This document shows, in pieces, positions 18,482 through 60,900 of a DNA stretch of 64,000 nucleotides. The DNA comes from Lama guanicoe. Its lineage: Eukaryota. Position numbers and translations under genes: made by a program. The notes beneath the pieces are model-generated. The model was not told the origin of the DNA. It saw only the letters and a program-made list of their open reading frames with translations, and searched no databases. Every line of letters begins with the position of its first letter. The first letter of the stretch is position 1. The stretch covers positions 1 to 64,000 of the forward strand of contig MU053559.1 in NCBI GenBank assembly GCA_013239625.1, in the 5' to 3' direction.

Positions 18482-19777
18482 TTATGAGAACCAGGCCAGA
18501 GAGAGGCACAGTGCAAGCACCAGGAGGGACATACCACTGTTCAGAGCCACAGGGACCACCACCAGCCCAGCCAGGACCCCCAGAGTCTGGGTCAAGGGTC
18601 CCCGGAGCTGGGGAGGCAATATACACACACACTCTGCAGGGGCTGCTCGGGTAGGAGACCTCTTTGGGGGCTCAAGGCTTGGGCCTGAACCCTCTTCATC
18701 CTGGGAGCTCACATGGGGCCTGGCCAGGCTGGAAGGATAGACTTCAGCCCCCAAGGGACCAAGGAGGGGGAGATTTTGCCCCCGCAGGACTGGAGCAGTT
18801 AGCTCCTTGCTGGATATAGGAACCAAGCTGTCTGCTGTCCCAGTGGTAAACTCCATCCGGGCTTCTGTCCCCTCCGGGGACCCAGTCACCCCAGCTATCA
18901 TCCTATTCATATGCAGAGAGTCAGTGTCCCTGCCCATCCCCTTCTCTGGAGCCCCAGGGAATTGACCCTCTATACCCAGAACCGCAGGGCTGTCACATCC
19001 CGAGCCCCCTGCCCATGGGAGCCACACATCTCCTACAGTGGCTACCACAGAACGGACCCCAGAAAGGATTTCTGGAGGCGATTCCTTGGGGGTGTCCCCT
19101 TCTGGGCTGGAGGGTATAATGGAGAGCCCCTCTTCCCCCTCCCCGTCCTCATCTGGGTCCTCAGTGTCCTTGATAAGCTCCACACCACGCCCCAGCCGGG
19201 CATAGTGCAGTGTGATCTCCTCAGCCAGGGCACTGTTCAGGGCCCGCTCAGGGCCAGGCCACTTTAAGATCAGGTCGCGGTCCGTGAGTATGCCCAGAGG
19301 GTGGCTGGGGGACACTCCCCCATCTGTGGGGCCCTCCCCCCCACCTCCTGCCCCACCAGCAGCCACAGCAGCTCGCAGGCGGCTCAGGTGGGACAGGTAG
19401 AGCTGCTCCAGCTCCTGGTCAATGGTGTCCTCGCCAAGCAGCTCCTCCAACCCACTCATGGCCTCCAGACCCCTGGAGGGCTCATCCTTAACAGCCCCCA
19501 CCACGGAGTCCTTTCGGCCCCTTCCATTCTCGCTGGACACTTCCCACGCGGCTTCCACCTGTCGCTGGCTGGGTTCCAGGAGAGGCCCGGCTGCCCCCTC
19601 ACTCGCATCGGGCCCTGAGGCCTGGTCCCTGGGAGAGCCACCCAGGCCACAGAGAGAGGAAGAGAGGGGAATCCTGATGGCTGGTGCCCGGGGAACTTCT
19701 GTGAAAGCCACTGGCAGACTGCTTCTGGGGACATCACCTTCCTCTGGGGGTTTGCCGGTTGCTGTAACTTCAGAAAC
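18482..19777 (-). CDS. PPP1R3F: PPP1R3F exon 4 (last coding exon), protein phosphatase 1 regulatory subunit 3F, with C-terminal transmembrane segment
   Basis: CAG acceptor at 19780-19778, then [20 protein letters not shown]...[33 protein letters not shown]; 1296 nt; matches the human PPP1R3F C-terminus. Confidence 0.97.
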
Positions 19778-22255: not shown

Positions 22256-22338
22256 CTGAAGTGTCATCTGGGGCCATGGACGGAGAGGGGTGGGGGCCAC
22301 CAGGGGACCCACTGACTCCCGGACCTTGGGACGCTCTG
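22256..22338 (-). CDS. PPP1R3F: PPP1R3F exon 3
   Basis: TTCCAG|CAGAGCGT..CTTCAG|GTAAG; 83 nt; (A)[27 protein letters not shown], matching human [28 protein letters not shown]. Confidence 0.95.
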
Positions 22339-29520: not shown

Positions 29521-31793
29521 ACTCTAAAATGACCAAACTCTGTTACCCAAACTGTCACGTCTCACAGACAGGGCTCCCACGACAGCCGGCTGGGATGATG
29601 ACTTGGGAAAAGTGACAGAAATGAAGGCAATGCTGGAGCACTTGGAACAGCTCGATATCTTGATCTGGGTGACAGTTTCACAAGGGCATACATAATGTAA
29701 AAATCTATTGAGCTTTACACTTATGATCAATAAGGAAAAAAAGATAAAAGTAAAGCAAGACATGCTGGGAACATGTGAACACCAGGAATGAAATGCAGAA
29801 TTTGCCCTGCATCCTGTTTGGTCTTCAAAAGGAACAGCAGTTTTTTGAAACCTCGTCCCTGATCCTGTCACTCACAAACTGGCTCACTTCTCTGAGCTAC
29901 CTCAGTTTCCCCCTCTGTTAAATGGACAAAATCATAGCACCTACACCACACAGCACGCACAGGACTCAGGAAAGAACAAACTTGCAGCTCTCAACACAGA
30001 GATCAGCAAACGTGGGCCATTGTTCATCTTTCAAAGCTACCACCGTGCTTTAGTTACCTCGCCCATGCTTGCCGCGTCCAATCCAAGCACACGAAGTGAC
30101 TGCATTCCCCTTGAGCAGATGAGAAAACTGAGGCTTCCAGATGAAGAGCCTGAGGCAAGGCTACACAGCTGGTAACAGGCACATCAGACTTTGGGAAGGG
30201 GATCCAAGGAACCACCTGTGATTCCCTAAATATTGACACTTAACACCGAATAGTGCTACTAAGAGCCAGGCTAGGTTCTGAGCGCTTTCACGTGTCTCCT
30301 GTGAAGCAGGTGCAACAATTATCTTTGTTTTACAGATGAGGGTACTGAGGCACAGTGCGGTTAAACGAGTCGGCCAAGGTCACAAGACCAAGAAATGACA
30401 AGACTGGAATTTGAACCCAGGCACTCTGATGTCAGAGTTCACACTCTCACCACTGTAAGGAAAGCCACGCTGCCTGCCCTGCTCAGACTAAGTCTTAGGT
30501 TACTGCGAGGCTCACCAGTTCGTAAGTGGGTACCTGTCTGCCTGTTCACTTACCCAGGCACATCTGCCCACAAGCCTCAAGCTAGACCTTTCTGAACCAC
30601 TCACAGCCTAAGGCTTTGCTAAGATCACAAATACCTTGCTGCGGCCAGAGGCTTGTAATCAAGCACAAACAAGGTCCAAAAAGCATTCTCCCATTCCCGT
30701 TTCCAGTCCTCCCAGGAGCAGGGAAATGGATACATTTCTCACACGTGCATGGAGAATCTACTTATGCCAGGCTAGACTTATGTAATTCCCCCCAAAATCA
30801 GGCCTAGCTGCTACCTTGAAGAACTCGTGGCTTGACAGAGAAAACCTAGGAGAATTTTGTATCAGGGCCTCCTGGGGTTAACTGGTTCCTTTTCCCAGGC
30901 CCTGAATGCTCACAGGTGGTATAGCAAAAACAAAGGTCAAGAGCTTCCAGTCCAGGCCCACCTGGTTCTGCCTCTGCCAGAGCTACTGCTTCCCTGTGAG
31001 AGCAGAGGCTCAGCCACTCAACTCCACAGGAGGTATCAGACTAGAATCAGAGCAAAACAGTCAAGAGAGTGCACAGGCCTCAAGGTCAGACATGGCTGAA
31101 TGGAAAAAGCCCAGGCGCCATCACTTCCTCAACCAGTTTCTCCCTCTGGAACCCTGGTTTCCTGCTGTCAAATGGGGATCAGATTCCCTGCCACCCACTG
31201 ATCCACACTACCATGTCACTGCAGTTCTCTCCACTTCCAGCACACTACCCTTCATTCACACCAGGCTCCTTCCCTGGACCACCTCAGGACCTTTGCGCTT
31301 ACTATTCTCTCTCCCTAGAACACGCTTGCTCCTGAATGTGTACATAACTGCTCCTCTTTATCATTCAGGACCCAGTTTAAGCGACCCTCCCCAAATCCCC
31401 TGCCTAAAGCATCTACTGCCTCCCAAGCTATCCCCTTACTCTTATTTTACTTTCCTCTCTGCAGCTAACCTTTTACCTATATATCTTATCTGCTTGCTGG
31501 TTGTTTTTTCAAACTGTCTCTCCTAAGAGCCTGTTATGAACTTTGAGGGCAGGGAAGATGTCTGTCTTGCACAGGGCTTTACAATGGAACTCAATAAATG
31601 AATGAATGAAACCCCAATAATTAAAACAGAGACTAGCACATGTTTAATCTCCATTGGCTCTTTGACTAACTGACTGAATACGCCCTCCTCCCTGTCCTGG
31701 AGAGCAGGCCTGAGGGGGTTCCTGGGTCAGAATGCTTGTCCTCCATCCTAGACACAGCCCTGCGTTGGCGGAGGTGGCGCTGGCAGACATTAC

Positions 31794-32766
31794 CTGCGCC
31801 TCACCGGCTTCATGCAGCTCTTCAGCTGCCTGGCCTCAGCCTCCACAGGACCCTGGCACTCGGGCTGTGGCTCCAGCTGCTGCTGCTGCTGGGGCAGCCC
31901 TTCGACATCAGTGGGTGTGGGAGCGGGTGCGATCCGGAGCAGGACTGTGTAGTTGCGGCCGTGGTTGTTGGCCCAGAAAGTGCCCTCGGGGGTCTCATAG
32001 CGCACCACGAAGTCCAGGCGCGCCCCATCGCCCGCGCCCTCAGCAAAGGGCAGCTGGAAGGCAAAGCGGTCGGTGCGGCCGCCGTCATCGGGCGAGGAGG
32101 CGGACGCCTGGCTGGGGCCCAGGTCAAGGCCCAGATCCAGGATGGGATCTCCTGCTCCTGGTACTCCCGCTCCTGCCCCCGGCGGGCTGCGCGGGACGTA
32201 GCGCGCTGGGTGGTCGCAGAAGGAAGCCCAGCCGTCGTGTGAGGCCCGCACGTGCACCGCCTTCTCGAAGGAACGGTTCAGCACGCGGACCAACCCGCGC
32301 ACCACCGGCGGGCGTCCCCCAGGCACCCACACCCCGGCACCCCCAGGGACCGCTCCGGGAGGCGGCAGCAGCGCCTCCAGCTCCACCATGACGCGCCCCA
32401 AGCGCTCCAAACGGCCCAGCGCGGGCGGCAGCGAAAATGTGGGCACCAGGTAAAACCCCCCGCCAGCGGGGACGGGGCACAGCGGCGAGGGCTCAGGGCA
32501 AGTCTCCTCTTCCTCCTCTCCTTCATCCCCATCCTCGCCATCGTCGTCCTCGTCAGCCCCGCCGCGGCCGCCATCTTGCCCGCCCCAGGCCCGCCCCACG
32601 GCCGGTAGCGGCGCAGCTGCGCCAGCGGCAGCCCCAGGGCCTCGTCGGCGAACAGCACCCTCCGCGGGGCCACCGCTGCCTCGACTGAGGTGCGGGGCTC
32701 ACCCGCGGCCGGCGAGGGGGGCGCAGGATGCCGCAGCGGGGGCTCCACAGGGGCCGTGCGCGCCAT
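31794..32766 (-). CDS. PPP1R3F: PPP1R3F exon 1 (RVxF PP1-binding motif RVLF, CBM21 glycogen-binding domain); as written it contains a frameshift near 32555-32580
   Basis: ATG 32766 [53 protein letters not shown] in one frame; [44 protein letters not shown] in another frame; donor CAG|GTAATG at 31794/31793. Confidence 0.95.
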
Positions 32767-33720
32767 ATCGGCGGCGGCGGCGGCGGCACCGACGGCACCG
32801 GCGGCGGGACCGGCGGGGGCAGGGCCTGAAGGGGCTTGCAGCCAATAGGAAGGCCAGCGCCGGGTGGGTACGACTCACGGGGGGCGTAGGCGGCGAGACG
32901 AAGACAGGTATAGTGGAGAGCCAATGAGGAGCCGCGCACGCGTGACGTAGGTGGTGAAGCAAGTGCAGGGGAAGCACGCAGCCAATAGGGATGCCCGAGA
33001 GTGGGCGGTGTAGGAGGCGGGATGATCGGGGAATCAATGGGGGGGGCCTGAAGTGGGGGTGGTGCGGGGTCCGGGATGAAGAGAGCAGGCGCAGGATAGC
33101 TAATTGGGGAAGCGGGATAAGGAGTGACGTGTGGGCGGCGGGGAAAATGGAATGGCTACAGGCGATAGGGGCAGCAGGTAGCGAACGGAGAGGCCAGAAA
33201 AGTCGGAAATCCGTAGGTTGCTTAGGTAGTGGGATGGAAGATAGAGATAGCGAACAGCCAATGGGAAGCCGCGCACCGGTGGCGTAGGGATGACAATAAT
33301 GGCTGTAGCAAACCAACGAGGAGTCTTTTCAGTGTGCACTGCACCTTCAAGGGGCGGGCCGTGGTGGGGCTAACCAATACGGAAACTAGAAGATGACCCA
33401 GAGGTGGTGTGTGCGAGGCTTTGGAGGCGGGACTGGAGGGGAAGAGCCAATGGGGTGGGCGATGTAGGCGGGAGCGAGGAAGAGAGACGGTGGATAGCCA
33501 ATGGGCGAGCCAGAGTGAAGGCAGTTGAGCCTTCAAAGGGCAGTGCTAGAACGGGATGAACCAATGCCGAAGCCACAAAGTGTAGCGGGACGGAAGTACA
33601 TGGAGGCGGGACGGCGAAGAGCAGAGCCAACCGGGGTGTTGTAGGTGGTGTGAAAGAGGGGATGAGCAGCCAATAAGTAGGCCAGAGAAGAGGGTGCGTA
33701 GGCCTTCTGGGCTGCAGGTT
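31860..33720. promoter_or_regulatory. CpG island / PPP1R3F promoter with CCAAT, GC-box, CRE-like and ETS motifs
   Basis: Very high GC and CpG density; nine CCAAT boxes (32842-33674), GGCGGG boxes, TGACGT at ~32943 and ~33125, CGGAAGT at 33591. Confidence 0.9.
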
Positions 33721-44448: not shown

Positions 44449-44658
44449 ATGCCCAACCCCAGGCCAGCCAAGCCCTTGGCCCCTTCCTTGGTGCTCGGCC
44501 CATCACCAGGAGCCTCACCCAGCTGGAGGGCTGCACCCAAGGCCCCAGACCAGCTGGGAGCCAAGGGCCCGGGGACAACCTTCCAGGGCCGGGACCTCAG
44601 AGGGGGGGCCCACGCCTCCTCTTCCTCCTTGAACCCCATGCCACCATCGCAGCTGCAG
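44449..44658 (+). CDS. FOXP3: FOXP3 coding exon 1 (exon begins 44427)
   Basis: CCACAG|CCTG..ATG 44449 [45 protein letters not shown]; 210 nt. Confidence 0.98.
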
Positions 44659-44669
44659 GTGAGGCCTAG

Positions 44670-44900
44670 GGCCCAAGATGGGGCAGGCAGGGTGGGGTAC
44701 CTGGGTGTACAGGTGCCGACCTTTACTGTGGCACTGGGCGGGGGGCCCAGCTGGAGCACAGGAAGTGGTTTTCTGGGTCCCAGGCAAGTCTGTGACTTAT
44801 GCAGATGTCGTGGGGCCAAGAAAGTCCCCACTTAACAGGTCTCAGAGATTCAAGGCTCTCCCCGATCTCCCGATCCCTGTCTCAGGAGAGGAGACCCTAT
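44670..44900. promoter_or_regulatory. FOXP3 CNS3 (c-Rel pioneer element)
   Basis: Immediately after coding exon 1; ETS CAGGAAGT and NF-kB-like AGAAAGTCCCC at ~44819-44829. Confidence 0.75.
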
Positions 44901-45171
44901 CATGGTCCCATGGGCAGATCCATGTGTGTCTCCATCCCCATGTGACAGAGGCAAGGGAGGTGAGGTGACAGGGTGGAGGCCAGCTTTGCCACTTATTGGC
45001 TGTCTGACCTTGAAAAAGTCACCTGATCTCCCTAAGCCTCAGTTTCCACATATGTAAAATGGGGATGGTCACAGCATTTAGCAGCAGGGTTGTGGTGAGG
45101 AGTCTATGAGTTAGATGTGTAGAACAGTGAGGGTGAGAATGACATGTCACCTGCCTGCCTTCTCTCCCCAG

Positions 45172-45276
45172 CTGCCCACAGTCCCCCTTGTCATGGTGGC
45201 ACCCTCCGGAACACGGCTGGGTCCCTCTCCCCACCTGCAGGCACTCCTCCAGGACAGGCCACACTTTGTGCATCAG
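45172..45276 (+). CDS. FOXP3: FOXP3 coding exon 2
   Basis: AG/GT flanked, 105 nt, [35 protein letters not shown] (LxxLL motif). Confidence 0.98.
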
Positions 45277-45360
45277 GTACCAACCTGGAATGGGCTGGGA
45301 GGAGGGAGCAGGTGGGAGAACTGGAGAGGGACCAGGCTGAACCAGGTCCCCTCCCCTTAG

Positions 45361-45499
45361 CTCTCAACAGTGGATGCCCATGCCCGGACCCCCGTGCTGC
45401 AGGTGCGCCCACTGGACAGCCCAGCTATGATCAGCCTCCCGCCACCCACTGCTGCTACTGGGGTCTTCTCCCTCAAGGCCCGGCCTGGCCTGCCACCTG
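45361..45499 (+). CDS. FOXP3: FOXP3 coding exon 3
   Basis: AG/GT flanked, 139 nt, [34 protein letters not shown](G). Confidence 0.98.
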
Positions 45500-45906
45500 G
45501 TAACACTGTACCCCGCAGCTCCACAGAACCCCCGAGCCCCCACTCCTTGAATGTGAGCAGTGTGGGCTGCTGAATCGCGGCCCCCAGGGAAGTCAGAGGT
45601 GTCAGGTCTTATCATCTTGGAAATTCCAACCTCTAAAAAAAGTGTCAGGCTCAGAACCTTGAAGATGCAGAATGTCAAAATCACGGAACCACAGATCTTT
45701 GCAAAGTTAGTCGAAATGTCAGCACTTGTGAGAGGCAGTCTTTGAGCTGCTCCACCAGAAACCTTGGATGTTAGGGACCACAGACCCCCCTGGGAGTCTG
45801 GACCTGCAATACTCAGGAAGAGGAGAAGCTCCAAATGGGAGGCCTTGTGGGCCAAGCTCCAGAGCTTGGCCCCCAGTCTCCAGAGGTGCCCTGTCCCCAC
45901 CTGCAG

Positions 45907-45994
45907 GGATCAACGTGACCAGCCTGGAGTGGGTGTCCAGGGAGCCAGCACTGCTCTGTGCCTTCCCAAGCCCCAGTGTGCCCAGGAAGGACAG
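45907..45994 (+). CDS. FOXP3: FOXP3 coding exon 4
   Basis: AG/GT flanked, 88 nt, [28 protein letters not shown]. Confidence 0.97.
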
Positions 45995-46063
45995 GTCAGT
46001 GTGCAGGGCTGGGAAGGCCCCTTGCCCTGCCGTCCCCTGCCCTGACATCCTTTGTCCCCCCAG

Positions 46064-46168
46064 CACCCTTTCGACTGTGCCCCAGGGCGCCTACTCACTG
46101 CTGGCAAATGGTGTCTGCAAGTGGCCCGGATGCGAGAAGGTCTTCGAGGAGCCAGAGGACTTCCTCAA
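46064..46168 (+). CDS. FOXP3: FOXP3 coding exon 5 (C2H2 zinc finger start)
   Basis: AG/GT flanked, 105 nt, [35 protein letters not shown]. Confidence 0.98.
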
Positions 46169-46587
46169 GTGAGTGGGCCAGGCCCGTTCCAGTCTGGGGG
46201 TGGGGGGGCCGGTTTGGGGGAGGAGGTCTGGGTTGCAGGTGTTAGTTCAGGGGGTTCAGATCCTGGCTCTCTCACTCACTGGCTCTGTGACCTTGGGCAA
46301 GTGACTTAGCTTCTCTGAGCCTTGGTTTCCTCATCTGTCTAACAGGGCATCATAATAGAGATGTGTGCTGTTATTTACCTCCATTTTACAGACAAAGAAA
46401 CTGAGGCCAAAGAGGTTAAGTGTCTTGATTCCAGATCATCCAGTTCCTGAGTGACAGCCAGGCTCCGGAATCCACACTCCCTACCTGCTTTGCCCTTCTA
46501 CCCAGCATGCCAACACACCAGCCTGACTTTATTGATTCCTCCAACTCCCAGCCCCTCTCAATGGCTGTTGCTACCTCCCCTCAGCCG

Positions 46588-46590
<3 letters not shown>

Positions 46591-46660
<70 letters not shown>
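46591..46660. repeat. Compound microsatellite (CT)25(CA)10 in FOXP3 intron 5
   Basis: Directly visible. Confidence 0.97.
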
Positions 46661-46661
<1 letters not shown>

Positions 46662-46946
46662 TTTCTCCAACCTTACCCAACTATCAGTGGCAATTCAATA
46701 CATCCTGTCCTCTTCACAACCAGGCCTTCGCACAGGCTGTCCCCTCCACCTGGAATGCCTTTCCTGCTCTCACTGACCTGGCCTGCTCTCAGCTCACCAC
46801 CCTTCCAACATCATCGCCAGCACCCTGGCCATGCAGTAGATGCCAAGTAGCATATGTTGAAGAAAGGACAGGTGTGAGAGGGAGACTGAGGGAGAAAGAG
46901 GCAAGCGAGGCTTAGCCTCCAAGGGTCCACCTCTCAGAGGGTCTGA

Positions 46947-47156
<210 letters not shown>

Positions 47157-47303
47157 TGAACCTTATGTCCATCCCGTGCATGGAGCTGGGGCTGGCATGA
47201 AAGAAGGAAGGGGGCAGGGCACTCCCAGGGAAGACCACAGTCTGGGCAAAGATGTGGCGGAGAAAGACCAGGTTGAGGCCTCACTCTGTGCCTGTCCTCA
47301 CAG

Positions 47304-47384
47304 CTGGTGCTGGAGAAGGAGAAGCTAGGTGCTATGCAGGCCCACCTGGCTGGGAAGATGGCCACAACCAAGGCTCCATCTGCG
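47304..47384 (+). CDS. FOXP3: FOXP3 coding exon 7 (leucine zipper)
   Basis: AG/GT flanked, 81 nt, [27 protein letters not shown]. Confidence 0.98.
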
Positions 47385-47646
47385 GTGAGCTACCCCAGAC
47401 CCATAGGTGGCACAGGCTGCTGGGGGGGGGGAGGGGGCCCTGCAGGCTGCATGGGGAACCTATCCTTGCACCCAGGCCCTGGGATCTCTGGGCCCCCATC
47501 CCCAGCTCTAAACAGGCCCAGACCTTGGAATCCATCCCTTTCCATTTACAAACCCTCTGATCTTAAGATCCCAAAACAGCGTGATCTTGAGTTTGCAAAG
47601 CAACAGCAAATCACCCAACACTGAATGCAGACCGTGTGCCGCTGGC

Positions 47647-47787
47647 AGGACTGGCTTTATAACTCACAGGGCCCAGGGCAAAATGAAAATATGGGGCTTA
47701 AATTTCAAAATGATGACTGCAGAGCATTAAATGAAGCATGGAGCCCTGAATGCCTGCACAGATCACATGCCCAGAAACCAGCCCTGG
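47647..47787 (+). mobile_element. hAT-Tip100 DNA transposon (MER45-like)
   Basis: Terminal inverted repeats CAGGACTGG..CCAGCCCTG and internal GGGCCCAGGGCAAAATGAAAAT. Confidence 0.65.
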
Positions 47788-48167
47788 ATGTCAGGCACTG
47801 TTTCTGAGCACTTTGGCGATGCTAACTTATTTAATCCTCATGACTGCCACTGTGAGGTAGGTGTTACTATCATCCCCAATTCACAGGTGAGGAAAATTGA
47901 GGCCAGGGAGGCTTAAGGTGACTTCCCCAAGGTCACAGTGGGTAGGAGAGGAGCCCGATTCAACCCCAGCTGGTGGCCTCGGCGTTGATGCGCTACACAC
48001 ACTCGTGTTCACACCCGCACTCTAGTAGATACGGCCTGTGCTTTTTTATGGGATTCTATATCAGAGTGGAATTGAGCAGAAGGTGCCCTTGCTTTGTGAA
48101 ACACTTATTTAAACCTAAAGTTGAAAGTTTAAGCCTCTGAGTCACCAGCCTCCCCCTCCTCCCCCAG

Positions 48168-48318
48168 GCATCATCTGAGAAGGGCTCCTGCTGTATCGTA
48201 GCCGCTGGCACCCAGGGCACTGCTGGCCCAGCCTGGCCCGGCCCCCAGGAGGCCCCTGACGGCCTGTTTGCTGTGCGGAGGCACCTCTGGGGCAGCCATG
48301 GAAACAGCACATTCCCAG
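48168..48318 (+). CDS. FOXP3: FOXP3 coding exon 8
   Basis: AG/GT flanked, 151 nt, [32 protein letters not shown]. Confidence 0.98.
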
Positions 48319-48988
48319 GTAAAGATGGCCCGTGCCCCACCTGGTGCCCCCGAGCCCCAGTCTCCCGGACTGGATGAAAGACTGCTTTTCCCCACCACTG
48401 CCTCCCAGCCTTTAGGAAATCACATATGCTTGTGAAAGCTTTCTCTCCGGATCCCCATGGCCTGCAAGCCCCCACTGTGGTTTCAGATGTCTAGCGCCAG
48501 CCCTGTCTCCCCTAGGATTGGGGCTTACTCACTCTGGGCTTTAACTGCTCCTGGTCATCATGAGGAAGGGAGCTAGCTTAGTAATTCCCAGGGACTCCCC
48601 CTCCCCCCACCAAGGAAAAGCAGGGTGACTTGCCTTAGTTCACCAATCCCCTATTACCCGCAAGGTCCAGGCTGTGGGCTTAACAGGGATCAGGGCCCTT
48701 GAGTGCCATCCTGGCTCTGCCACTTAGCCAGTTACATCCCTTTGATGTGGAAGTTGCTTCACTTCTTTTAAACCTTGGGGAGAATAAGCCCCGTTTTGAT
48801 GGAAGTGGTGCAAAAGGGAAATGATATCATTTATGTCAAGGGCTTAGCAAACAGCAGCTGCGATCATGGAAACCAGTGTCAACGGTGGGATTTCAGGCAT
48901 GCAGACTCGACAGACATTCTAGAGCAGAGGGTGGGAGAAGGGGCAAGGAGTTCTCGGATGGGGCCTGATCCTTCCCCACTTCTGACAG

Positions 48989-49065
48989 AGTTCTTCCACA
49001 ACATGGACTACTTCAAGTTCCACAACATGCGGCCCCCTTTCACCTATGCCACCCTCATCCGTTGG
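48989..49065 (+). CDS. FOXP3: FOXP3 coding exon 9 (forkhead start)
   Basis: AG/GT flanked, 77 nt, (E)[25 protein letters not shown]. Confidence 0.98.
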
Positions 49066-49149
49066 GTAAGCAGCGTGCCAGGCTGAGGGGAAGGAAGAGA
49101 GAGCCGGGGTGGAGGGCCTGCCTCCCTCTAAGCACCCCGAGGCCGGCTC

Positions 49150-50543
<1,394 letters not shown>

Positions 50544-50559
50544 TGACCTCAGAGGATGA

Positions 50560-50763
<204 letters not shown>

Positions 50764-58465: not shown

Positions 58466-58811
58466 ACAAGGCAGTCTGAGGAAGGCCTCTGTGAACAGGA
58501 AATTCCAAGAGGTAAGGGAGTGAACCATGAGGGTATCTGGCGGAAGAATAAGTCAGCAGATACAAAGGCCCTGGGGCTGGAGAGTCCTGAGGAGCATTCA
58601 GTAGGTCAGTGTGGTTAGAGAAGAGTGGGTGAGGGGAGGGGCGTGAGCCAGGAGGTGAAGCAGAGCATCAACTCCCCTTCCAGGTCAGCCGAAGCCCCAG
58701 CCCCCTTCCCCTCTGCCCTGCATCCCCTCTCCCAGCCTCAATCCTCCCACTCAGCTCTTCCGAAGACACATACCCCACCTCACCCCCCACTATGCCCCAG
58801 GTACCCCATAC

Positions 58812-58944
58812 CTGCAGGCTGGTCTGCATCCTCAGAGGCATCAGTGGGCAGACGCTCAGCCAAGAAGAGAAGCAGGTCCCGGAGGTCAGGCTCACTGGGG
58901 TAGAGGAAGTTCTGATAGCCAAGCTCCAAGGGATAGCCCAGGTC
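58812..58944 (-). CDS. CCDC22: CCDC22 exon 3
   Basis: 133 nt DLGYPLELGYQNFLYPSEPDLRDLLLFLAERLPTDASEDADQPA(G). Confidence 0.97.
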
Positions 58945-59084
58945 CTGGGGGTTGGGGAGGGCGGTCCCTATCAGTCAGGCAGGCAGGATCCTCCTGTCCT
59001 GGGAGCCCACAGATACTCCCACTCTCACCAACCACCACCCTCTGAACTTCCCTTTGGCTCCCCGAGGCCTCCCAGAGACCTCCA

Positions 59085-60900
59085 GAGCTTTATGATGAAA
59101 GCTCTGGCCTTTCTAACTATGACTCAAAATCCAGAAGACATAGAAGAGAAGATGGGTATTTCTAAACACATGAAAAAAATTTTAAAGAAAAAATATATAA
59201 TGAGCAAAGTCAAAAGAGTAATGATAAGCTGGGAAAAATATTTGGAACTCATAGCATAGAAAAAGAACTAACCTACCTAGTATATAAACAGTGCCTCAAA
59301 CTACACCAGCAAAAAGACCAGCAGCGCAACAGAGAAAGAGGCAAAAGATAGGAACAGACAGTTCCCAGGAAAAGAAAGAAAAATGGTCCTTAAACATATG
59401 CAAATGTGTCTAACTTTGCTTCCAAGAGAGACTCGAATTGAAAGTACACTGAGAGGCCCCCACACAGGCATCGCTGATCGGATCCAGGACAACCTGATGT
59501 TATGTTCTCCTGAGGTGCACTTGGGGAGGAAGATACTATCACTGGCGCAGAGTTCCTGCCCCAAACCTGAATTTAGCCATGAGAAAACAATCAGACCAGT
59601 TCAGACTGTGGGGCATTCCAATGAATAACCAGCCTGCACTCTATAAAAACCCAAGTCATCATGAAAAGAAACAAAGAAGCAAAAATGAAGGAGGACTACT
59701 GGATACAGAAGATTACAGATGTTAACAGTGAAATAAAATGCATGACCCTTGATTGGACTCTGCAGTTAAAAAAAAACAGCTATAAAGGATATTTTTGTGA
59801 CAACTGGGGAAATCTGACCATGTCCAAGGTATTAGATAGTATTATTCTATCAATATTAAGTTGCATGGGTGTGATCATGGCATTGTGATTACACTGGCAA
59901 ATGCCCTTTTTCTTAGGAGAGACACACTGAAAGTTTGAGGTATGAAGAGTCAGGATGTCTGCCACTTTCAAATGGTTCAGCAAAAAAATAAGTGTGTGTG
60001 TGTGTACCTATATAGACAGAAAACAATGAAACAAAATGTTAACAATATAGAAAACTAACAAATATATGTATGTATACATATGACTGGGAAATTGTGCTTT
60101 ACACCAGAAATTGACATGCTATAACTGACTATACTTCAATTTTTAAAAAAAGAAAAAATTTAAAAACTAGGAGAAGGGTATACAGGTGTTATTGTTCTAC
60201 TTTTAATTTCCCTTAAATGTGAAAGTTTGTCAAAGTACAACGCTAGGAGGAAAACTATACGGAGATACCATTCCTCACCTATTAAATGGGCAAAAGTCTG
60301 ACAATACACTCAGTAGGTGAGGCTCTGGAGAAATACCACTCTCTCATACACTGCTGCTGGGAATGCAAAAATTAAACAATCTTAGTCAAGGCAATTTGGC
60401 TAAATCAAACAAAATGACATGCGTTTACCCTTCCATCTAATGATCCTACTTCTAGGAGTTTACCATGAAGATAAAATTCCAACAATTCAAGAATATATAT
60501 GCACAAGATTATTCATTATAGCATGATTTGCAAAATATTGGAAACTCTTGAAATGTCTGAGCATAAGAGAGCAGTTGAGTCAACTGTGGTGCATACATAC
60601 AATGAACTACTCTGTAGCTGCAAAAAGGAAAAAATCATTAAGATCTCTATTCTCTGATATGAAGTGATTTCCAGGATATGTTTTAAGGGTGAAAAAAAGG
60701 CAAGAAACCAGGTGTATGCTCTCTTTTGTGTAAGAAAAGGGAGAAATAAGGATATATATTTATATTTGCTTATATCTTCATTAAAAAAAACTGGGAAGAT
60801 ATATAAGAAACTAACCAACATAACTCCCTGACAGCAGAGTAACTCCCTGAAGCAGACAGGTAAGGGTAAGGAGGGGTTTAGAGTGCAAGTGAGACTTCTC
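59085..60900 (+). mobile_element. Old L1M fragments with a younger L1 tail (~60040-60160)
   Basis: A-rich L1 ORF2/3' motifs (GAACAGACAGTTC.CAGGAAAAG; ATACACTGCTGCTGGGAATGCAAA; ACACCAGAAATTGACA..ACTGACTATACTTCAAT). Confidence 0.7.

What the first reader, a model, noticed from the sequence alone, without database searches (positions are those of the whole stretch)
32540..32600. PPP1R3F exon 1 is frameshifted by collapse of a direct repeat read in two frames
Seen: ATG-to-donor is 973 nt (mod 3 = 1), but the phase-2 junction with exon 2 needs mod 3 = 2. The start frame gives ..[17 protein letters not shown].. and stops at 32278 (162 aa), while the conserved sequence ([12 protein letters not shown]21) continues in another frame. 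Known: human/mouse read GKMAAAxG-QDGGGGG-ADE, using GCAAGATGGCGGC twice in different frames; here it occurs once. Inference: a ~22 or 25 nt deletion between the repeat copies. If real, this X-linked gene gives an NMD-prone 162-aa peptide carrying only the RVLF PP1-docking motif. It might also give an N-truncated form from the strong-context ATG at 32389 (MVELEALL..) that keeps CBM21 and the TM segment but lacks RVxF. The rest of the CDS is intact and conserved, which favours a recent allele or a GC-rich assembly error over old pseudogenisation.
Basis: partly seen in the sequence, partly recalled or inferred. Interest (0 to 1): 0.75.

Follow-up and report, generated by a model that had tools for sequence, protein, structure and literature searches.

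The report
Camelid PPP1R3F 22-base repeat deletion
In this South American camelid sequence the X-linked brain glycogen gene PPP1R3F lacks 22 bases and is knocked out of frame; this is more likely an assembly error than a real allele, but it falls in the same place as a 22-base deletion reported in a human patient, so it should be checked in raw reads.

Summary
The frameshift is in the sequence: exon 1 has 973 coding bases, needs 995, and the start frame stops after 162 residues. Against the intact alpaca protein record, exactly 22 bases are missing, one unit of an imperfect tandem repeat, with a 10-base shared stretch at 32556-32565. The rest matches alpaca at 799 of 800 residues, and neighbouring FOXP3 is intact, so this is not an old pseudogene.

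The site therefore does delete in vivo.

Against a real allele: local GC is 82%, two other alpaca records break differently at this same spot, and 14 of 72 placental records lack this N-terminus.

Assembly or consensus error about 0.62; real rare allele about 0.32; lineage-wide loss or rescue about 0.06. The proposed N-truncated product from 32389 is unlikely.

The parts
31794..32766 (-). PPP1R3F exon 1, coding part (973 nt; 995 nt needed for the alpaca protein)
32650..32661 (-). RVLF PP1-docking (RVxF) motif, residues 36-39, upstream of the break
   Evidence: translation; role of the motif from PMC13759716
32556..32581 (-). Single retained unit of the imperfect 22-nt tandem repeat that codes G-K-M-A-A-A-A-G in one frame and G-Q-D-G-x-G-G in the other
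32556..32565 (-). 10-nt stretch shared by both repeat units; the 22-nt deletion junction lies within it (placements c.202_223 to c.212_233, including c.207_228)
32387..32389 (-). Internal ATG (Met134 of alpaca P0001) in the downstream frame; unlikely to be used
32278..32280 (-). Premature TGA of the shifted frame (codon 163), orthologous to the stop implied by human fs*95 (codon 164)
31943..32305 (-). CBM21 glycogen-binding domain, now out of frame with the start codon
   Evidence: Pfam PF03370 E 3.8e-22; PDB relatives PPP1R3A/B/C for P0001
22555..22610 (-). PPP1R3F exon 2, intact
22256..22335 (-). PPP1R3F exon 3, intact
18482..19777 (-). PPP1R3F exon 4 coding part with the C-terminal hydrophobic tail and stop; one difference from alpaca P0001 (W709R)
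44449..50763 (+). FOXP3, 11 coding exons, intact 431 aa; head-to-head neighbour that marks the orthologous locus and serves as assembly-quality control

Best explanation
The animal has a normal PPP1R3F gene and the deposited sequence has lost one unit of an imperfect 22-nt tandem repeat during library amplification, gap joining or consensus polishing. Shown: the gap is exactly one repeat unit with a 10-nt shared stretch in an 82% GC, GGC-rich first exon, and the gene is otherwise the alpaca-type gene. Inferred: that the loss arose in sequencing or assembly rather than in the germline.
For: An intact alpaca record exists (P0001, 808 aa) and the window matches it at 799 of 800 compared residues. 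All 58 of 58 placental records with the RVxF motif keep both repeat-coded halves. The camelid protein shows no relaxed constraint: 10 differences from consensus in residues 1-332 against a median of 12 among 58. The spot is error-prone in databases: alpaca P0002 and P0003 start MATAAGL, the second repeat copy read in the +1 frame, then shift frame again, and 14 of 72 placental records lack the RVxF N-terminus. GC at 32556-32655 is 82%, in the top 0.1% of 100-nt windows, with 8 GGC in 56 nt. False indels are enriched in GC-rich 5' exons (PMC9516821, section 8) and GGC triggers Illumina errors (PMC3141275 abstract). Loss of function causes disease in hemizygous boys (PMC13759716), so real carriers should be rare (inference).
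Against: The same 22-nt register is deleted in a reported human patient, so the event occurs in vivo. The surrounding sequence is clean: no N in 64 kb, no other frameshift in about 3.7 kb of coding sequence, and residues 1-70, at 82-84% GC, are correct. The junction carries no stray bases. A 10-nt shared stretch is too short to collapse in a k-mer graph by itself (own knowledge). The folding energy at the junction is ordinary (z -0.23 and -0.80). The broken database records are gene models; I did not see the DNA behind them.
Confidence: 0.62

Rival explanations
1. A real, young loss-of-function allele in the sequenced animal (most simply a heterozygous female whose mutant X was assembled), made by replication slippage or microhomology-mediated repair between the two repeat units. 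It would be the camelid counterpart of human c.207_228del: p.Gln71Leufs*93, stop 484 nt before the first junction, mRNA decay, and at most a 162-aa peptide with RVLF but no CBM21 or membrane anchor.
For: Human c.207_228del p.(Gly70Alafs*95) is listed for 1 of 15 patients. c.207_228 is among the 11 allowed placements of the window's gap. Human numbering runs one ahead after residue 70 (all 10 listed residues from 82 onward fit at offset -1), which makes the human stop (164) the window's stop (163). The assembly is clean elsewhere in the window. A carrier mother is described for another variant.
Against: No read support was obtained. No database protein carries the shifted tail: 1 hit among 747 candidates, matching only the normal N-terminus. 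No match in metagenome contigs (camelid DNA is not expected there, so this is weak). Other alpaca records break differently at this spot.
Confidence: 0.32
2. The deletion is fixed or common in this species or population, so PPP1R3F was lost after the split from the alpaca lineage behind P0001.
For: Only the frameshift itself; the window differs from alpaca P0001 at one other residue.
Against: No second lesion in 800 codons, no relaxed constraint, intact in 58 of 58 full-length placental records including alpaca.
Confidence: 0.04
3. The deletion is real but a shorter protein starting at Met134 (32389) or a cryptic splice keeps CBM21 and the membrane anchor without RVxF, acting as a PP1-less glycogen anchor.
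For: The ATG has a strong context and would give 675 aa; 3 of 72 placental models start there.
Against: Five upstream ATGs in good context, and the premature stop lies downstream of this ATG. The only upstream donor-like site, at 32702, would also remove RVxF. The three models are more simply incomplete annotations (inference).
Confidence: 0.02

Closest known systems
Human PPP1R3F c.207_228del p.(Gly70Alafs*95), listed in Table 2 of PMC13759716 from Liu et al. 2023 (original not seen)
   Same: 22 nt, same repeat, same register, same shifted frame and orthologous stop codon.
   Different: Reported as a germline variant in an affected boy; here it is one unverified assembly sequence. The human linker is one codon longer, so the first changed residue is 70 rather than 71 and the stop 164 rather than 163.
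Alpaca PPP1R3F (R3F), record P0001, 808 aa: ER tail-anchored glycogen-targeting subunit of PP1
   Same: 799 of 800 compared residues, four coding exons, RVxF, CBM21, hydrophobic tail.
   Different: The window lacks 22 nt in exon 1 and has R for W at 709.
False indels and false gene losses in GC-rich first exons (PMC9516821)
   Same: GC-rich first coding exon in a CpG island (CpG observed/expected 0.90); a single frameshift in an otherwise conserved gene.
   Different: That study's frameshift class counted indels under 10 bp; this one is 22 nt with a shared stretch, a form that real mutations also take.

Membership tests
PPP1R3F orthologue | RVxF PP1-docking motif near the N-terminus | tested here: met
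   RVLF at residues 36-39
PPP1R3F orthologue | CBM21 domain | tested here: met
   Pfam PF03370 E 3.8e-22 in the second frame
PPP1R3F orthologue | C-terminal hydrophobic tail anchor and four coding exons | tested here: met
   residues 710-808 identical to alpaca P0001; exons joined in frame
PPP1R3F orthologue | Synteny with FOXP3 and CCDC22 | tested here: met
   FOXP3 and CCDC22 pieces in the window; the X location itself rests on PMC13759716 and recalled gene order
PPP1R3F orthologue | One continuous reading frame | tested here: not met
   22-nt gap, stop at 32280-32278
Unitary pseudogene (old gene loss) | Several lesions and relaxed constraint | tested here: not met
   one lesion; 799 of 800 residues identical to alpaca; distance to consensus below the median
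Real germline repeat-mediated deletion | Direct repeat or microhomology at the junction | tested here: met
   10-nt shared stretch, deletion of one 22-nt unit
Real germline repeat-mediated deletion | Junction present in raw reads or transcripts | not tested
   no reads were laid; word shares cannot resolve it (about 2 of 410 words are junction-specific)
Assembly artefact | Source reads contradict the assembled sequence | not tested
   no reads were laid
Assembly artefact | GC-rich, error-prone context; relatives intact | tested here: met
   82% GC; intact alpaca record and two alpaca records broken differently at the same spot

The most novel reading that the evidence does not exclude
A living camelid carries the same 22-nt exon-1 deletion that is reported in a human patient with PPP1R3F deficiency. 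The placental-wide repeat read in two frames would then be a recurrent mutational weak point in a neurodevelopmental gene, and carrier herds would offer a natural large-animal model and a testable X-linked defect for breeders.
Probability: 0.32. Interest if true: 0.5.

Novelty: not a real feature. Interest (0 to 1): 0.24.

Why it matters
If it is an error, it is a caution: this assembly would be scored as having lost PPP1R3F, and camelid models already break here. If it is real, it is an independent recurrence of a human disease allele at an orthologous repeat, which would show that the repeat itself drives the mutation and would give a natural animal carrier. Either way the gene, its function and the mutation type are already known, so the ceiling is moderate.

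Tried and rejected
The members of the alpaca protein cluster could not be listed, so other camelid species were not seen one by one. No whole genome is held for this window, so a second intact copy elsewhere was not excluded.

Word shares: 14 DNA runs of four coded organisms in five studies hold 0.89-0.98 of 410 words, none 1.00. Only about 2 words are junction-specific, so this says nothing about the junction. The small-share rows were not used.

A search with the 162-aa product found 1 hit among 747 candidates, matching only the normal N-terminus. A junction pattern allowing 0-30 extra bases found 0 matches in metagenome contigs. A hairpin cause was not supported (z -0.23, -0.80); one short G4-like run lies at 32597-32579, untested. 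Tandem Repeats Finder and the repeat finder show no surviving 22-nt pair, as expected after collapse.

Rejected: a 25-nt gap; old pseudogene; general indel noise; programmed frameshifting, because 22 coding bases are absent rather than a slip site present.

Literature: PPP1R3F alone gave 101 papers, 30 listed, none on camelids by title. The camelid search listed 15 of 6,118, none holding PPP1R3F, a weak search. The human variant string is in 1 paper. A knockout search gave 2 papers, listings only. Liu et al. 2023 is not held; its text and supplements may state how that patient's deletion was confirmed and inherited.

Full report
Observation. On the minus strand the ATG is at 32766 and the exon 1 donor at 31793, giving 973 coding bases (mod 3 = 1). 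The start frame reads to G-K-M-A-A-A-A-G, continues L-T-R-T-T and stops at 32280-32278 after 162 residues, while the acidic stretch and the rest of exon 1 run in another frame. That second frame holds CBM21 (Pfam E 3.8e-22).

What the gene is. The best hits of the second frame are alpaca PPP1R3F records. P0001 (808 aa) is intact and reads [18 protein letters not shown]. The window equals P0001 at residues 1-70 and at 79-808 apart from W709R, so 799 of 800 compared residues match; R occurs at that column in 8 of 58 records. Exons 2-4 have GT-AG ends and join in frame. FOXP3 and CCDC22 flank the gene. This is the orthologous locus of a South American camelid; the species was not determined.

Anatomy of the lesion. 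P0001 needs 995 coding bases in exon 1; the window has 973. A 22-base gap reconciles them with no mismatch at 11 adjacent placements, c.202_223 to c.212_233, which defines a 10-base stretch (32556-32565) shared by the two repeat units. Two other alpaca records, P0002 and P0003, begin M-A-T-A-A-G-L. This is the second unit read in the +1 frame: only 2 DNA solutions code both peptides, and they differ from the window's retained unit at 2 of the first 23 bases. The intact camelid gene therefore has an imperfect 22-base tandem pair, and the window has lost exactly one unit. All 58 of 58 placental records with RVxF keep both halves; 0 of 6 marsupial records have them.

The human parallel. Table 2 of PMC13759716 (whole text read) lists c.207_228del p.(Gly70Alafs*95) for 1 of 15 patients with X-linked PPP1R3F deficiency, citing Liu et al. 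2023, which is not held. c.207_228 is one of the window's allowed placements. The 13 human residues listed in that table fit P0001 at offset 0 up to residue 70 and at offset -1 from residue 82 on, so human has one more codon in the linker and its fs*95 stop (codon 164) is the window's stop (codon 163). I did not see the human DNA sequence; the equivalence rests on numbering. It shows that this repeat can delete in a germline, and it raises the odds of a real allele.

Consequence if real. The product would be p.Gln71Leufs*93, with the stop 484 bases before the first exon junction, a standard NMD target by the recalled 50-55 base rule. It keeps RVLF and loses CBM21 and the ER tail anchor, whose roles are taken from PMC13759716.

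Artefact or allele. For artefact: GC is 82% at 32556-32655, in the top 0.1% of the window's 100-base stretches, with 8 GGC in 56 bases. P0002 and P0003 carry a different frame break within a few bases of the same junction, and have W at 709, so they come from another haplotype. Of 72 placental records, 14 lack the RVxF N-terminus; these are gene models, not DNA I inspected. False indels concentrate in GC-rich 5' exons (PMC9516821: passages; section 8), and GGC triggers Illumina miscalls (PMC3141275: abstract). A damaging X-linked allele should be rare (inference).

For a real allele: the human precedent; no N in the window; no other frameshift in PPP1R3F or in FOXP3, which gives 431 aa from 11 exons with 2 substitutions against dromedary in 396 compared residues; correct sequence through the 82-84% GC stretch just upstream; a clean junction; and no unusual folding. 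A 10-base overlap is shorter than usual assembly words, so an error would need amplification slippage, overlap joining or polishing (own knowledge).

Old loss is excluded in practice: one lesion only, and the camelid protein lies closer to the placental consensus than the median (10 versus 12 differences in residues 1-332; 55 versus 66 in 333-808; n = 58).

What stayed untested. Public runs covering the locus exist: 14 DNA runs of four coded organisms hold 0.89-0.98 of the sampled words, three of them possibly the source. A search with the shifted product and a junction pattern scan found no second carrier; both are weak tests. Earlier notes on this genome are unchecked leads: they also call it camelid and place MAOA 3.7 Mb away on the same piece.

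Verdict. The frameshift is present in the assembly and is a one-unit repeat collapse. I put assembly or consensus error at 0.62, a real rare allele at 0.32, lineage-wide loss at 0.04 and functional rescue at 0.02. These odds are judgement from base rates and context, not a measurement. Interest 0.24; about 0.5 if reads confirm the allele.

Noticed in passing
P0002, P0003 (alpaca records), matching window 32575-32550: Both models start at the ATG inside the second repeat unit and then change frame, a different break at the same spot. In the intact gene that ATG opens an out-of-frame ORF ending at the same TGA as the frameshift product.
   Followed up: partly
window 18782-18784 (-): CGG (Arg) where alpaca P0001 has Trp709; the column is variable (Q 38, R 8, P 5, W 3, L 2, S 1, E 1 of 58), so probably neutral.
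   Followed up: yes
window 32874-32767 (-): The start frame is open for 36 codons upstream of the ATG, and the naked mole-rat record P0041 has a similar N-terminal extension; the window has no ATG there.
   Followed up: no
window 32838-33700: The PPP1R3F upstream region holds many CCAAT-box-like motifs on both strands, including a near-identical 18-nt pair at 32838 and 32978.
   Followed up: no
window 44449-50763 (+): FOXP3 is intact; two substitutions against dromedary P0087, which itself lacks the second coding exon.
   Followed up: yes
window 58633-59256 (+): A 208-codon stop-free frame with a Lys/Met-rich tail and no Pfam match; unexplained, possibly a decayed retrocopy or repeat.
   Followed up: partly
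window 32702 (-): A donor-like site 64 nt after the ATG; a guinea-pig model (P0064) diverges at about this point, probably a prediction artefact.
   Followed up: no
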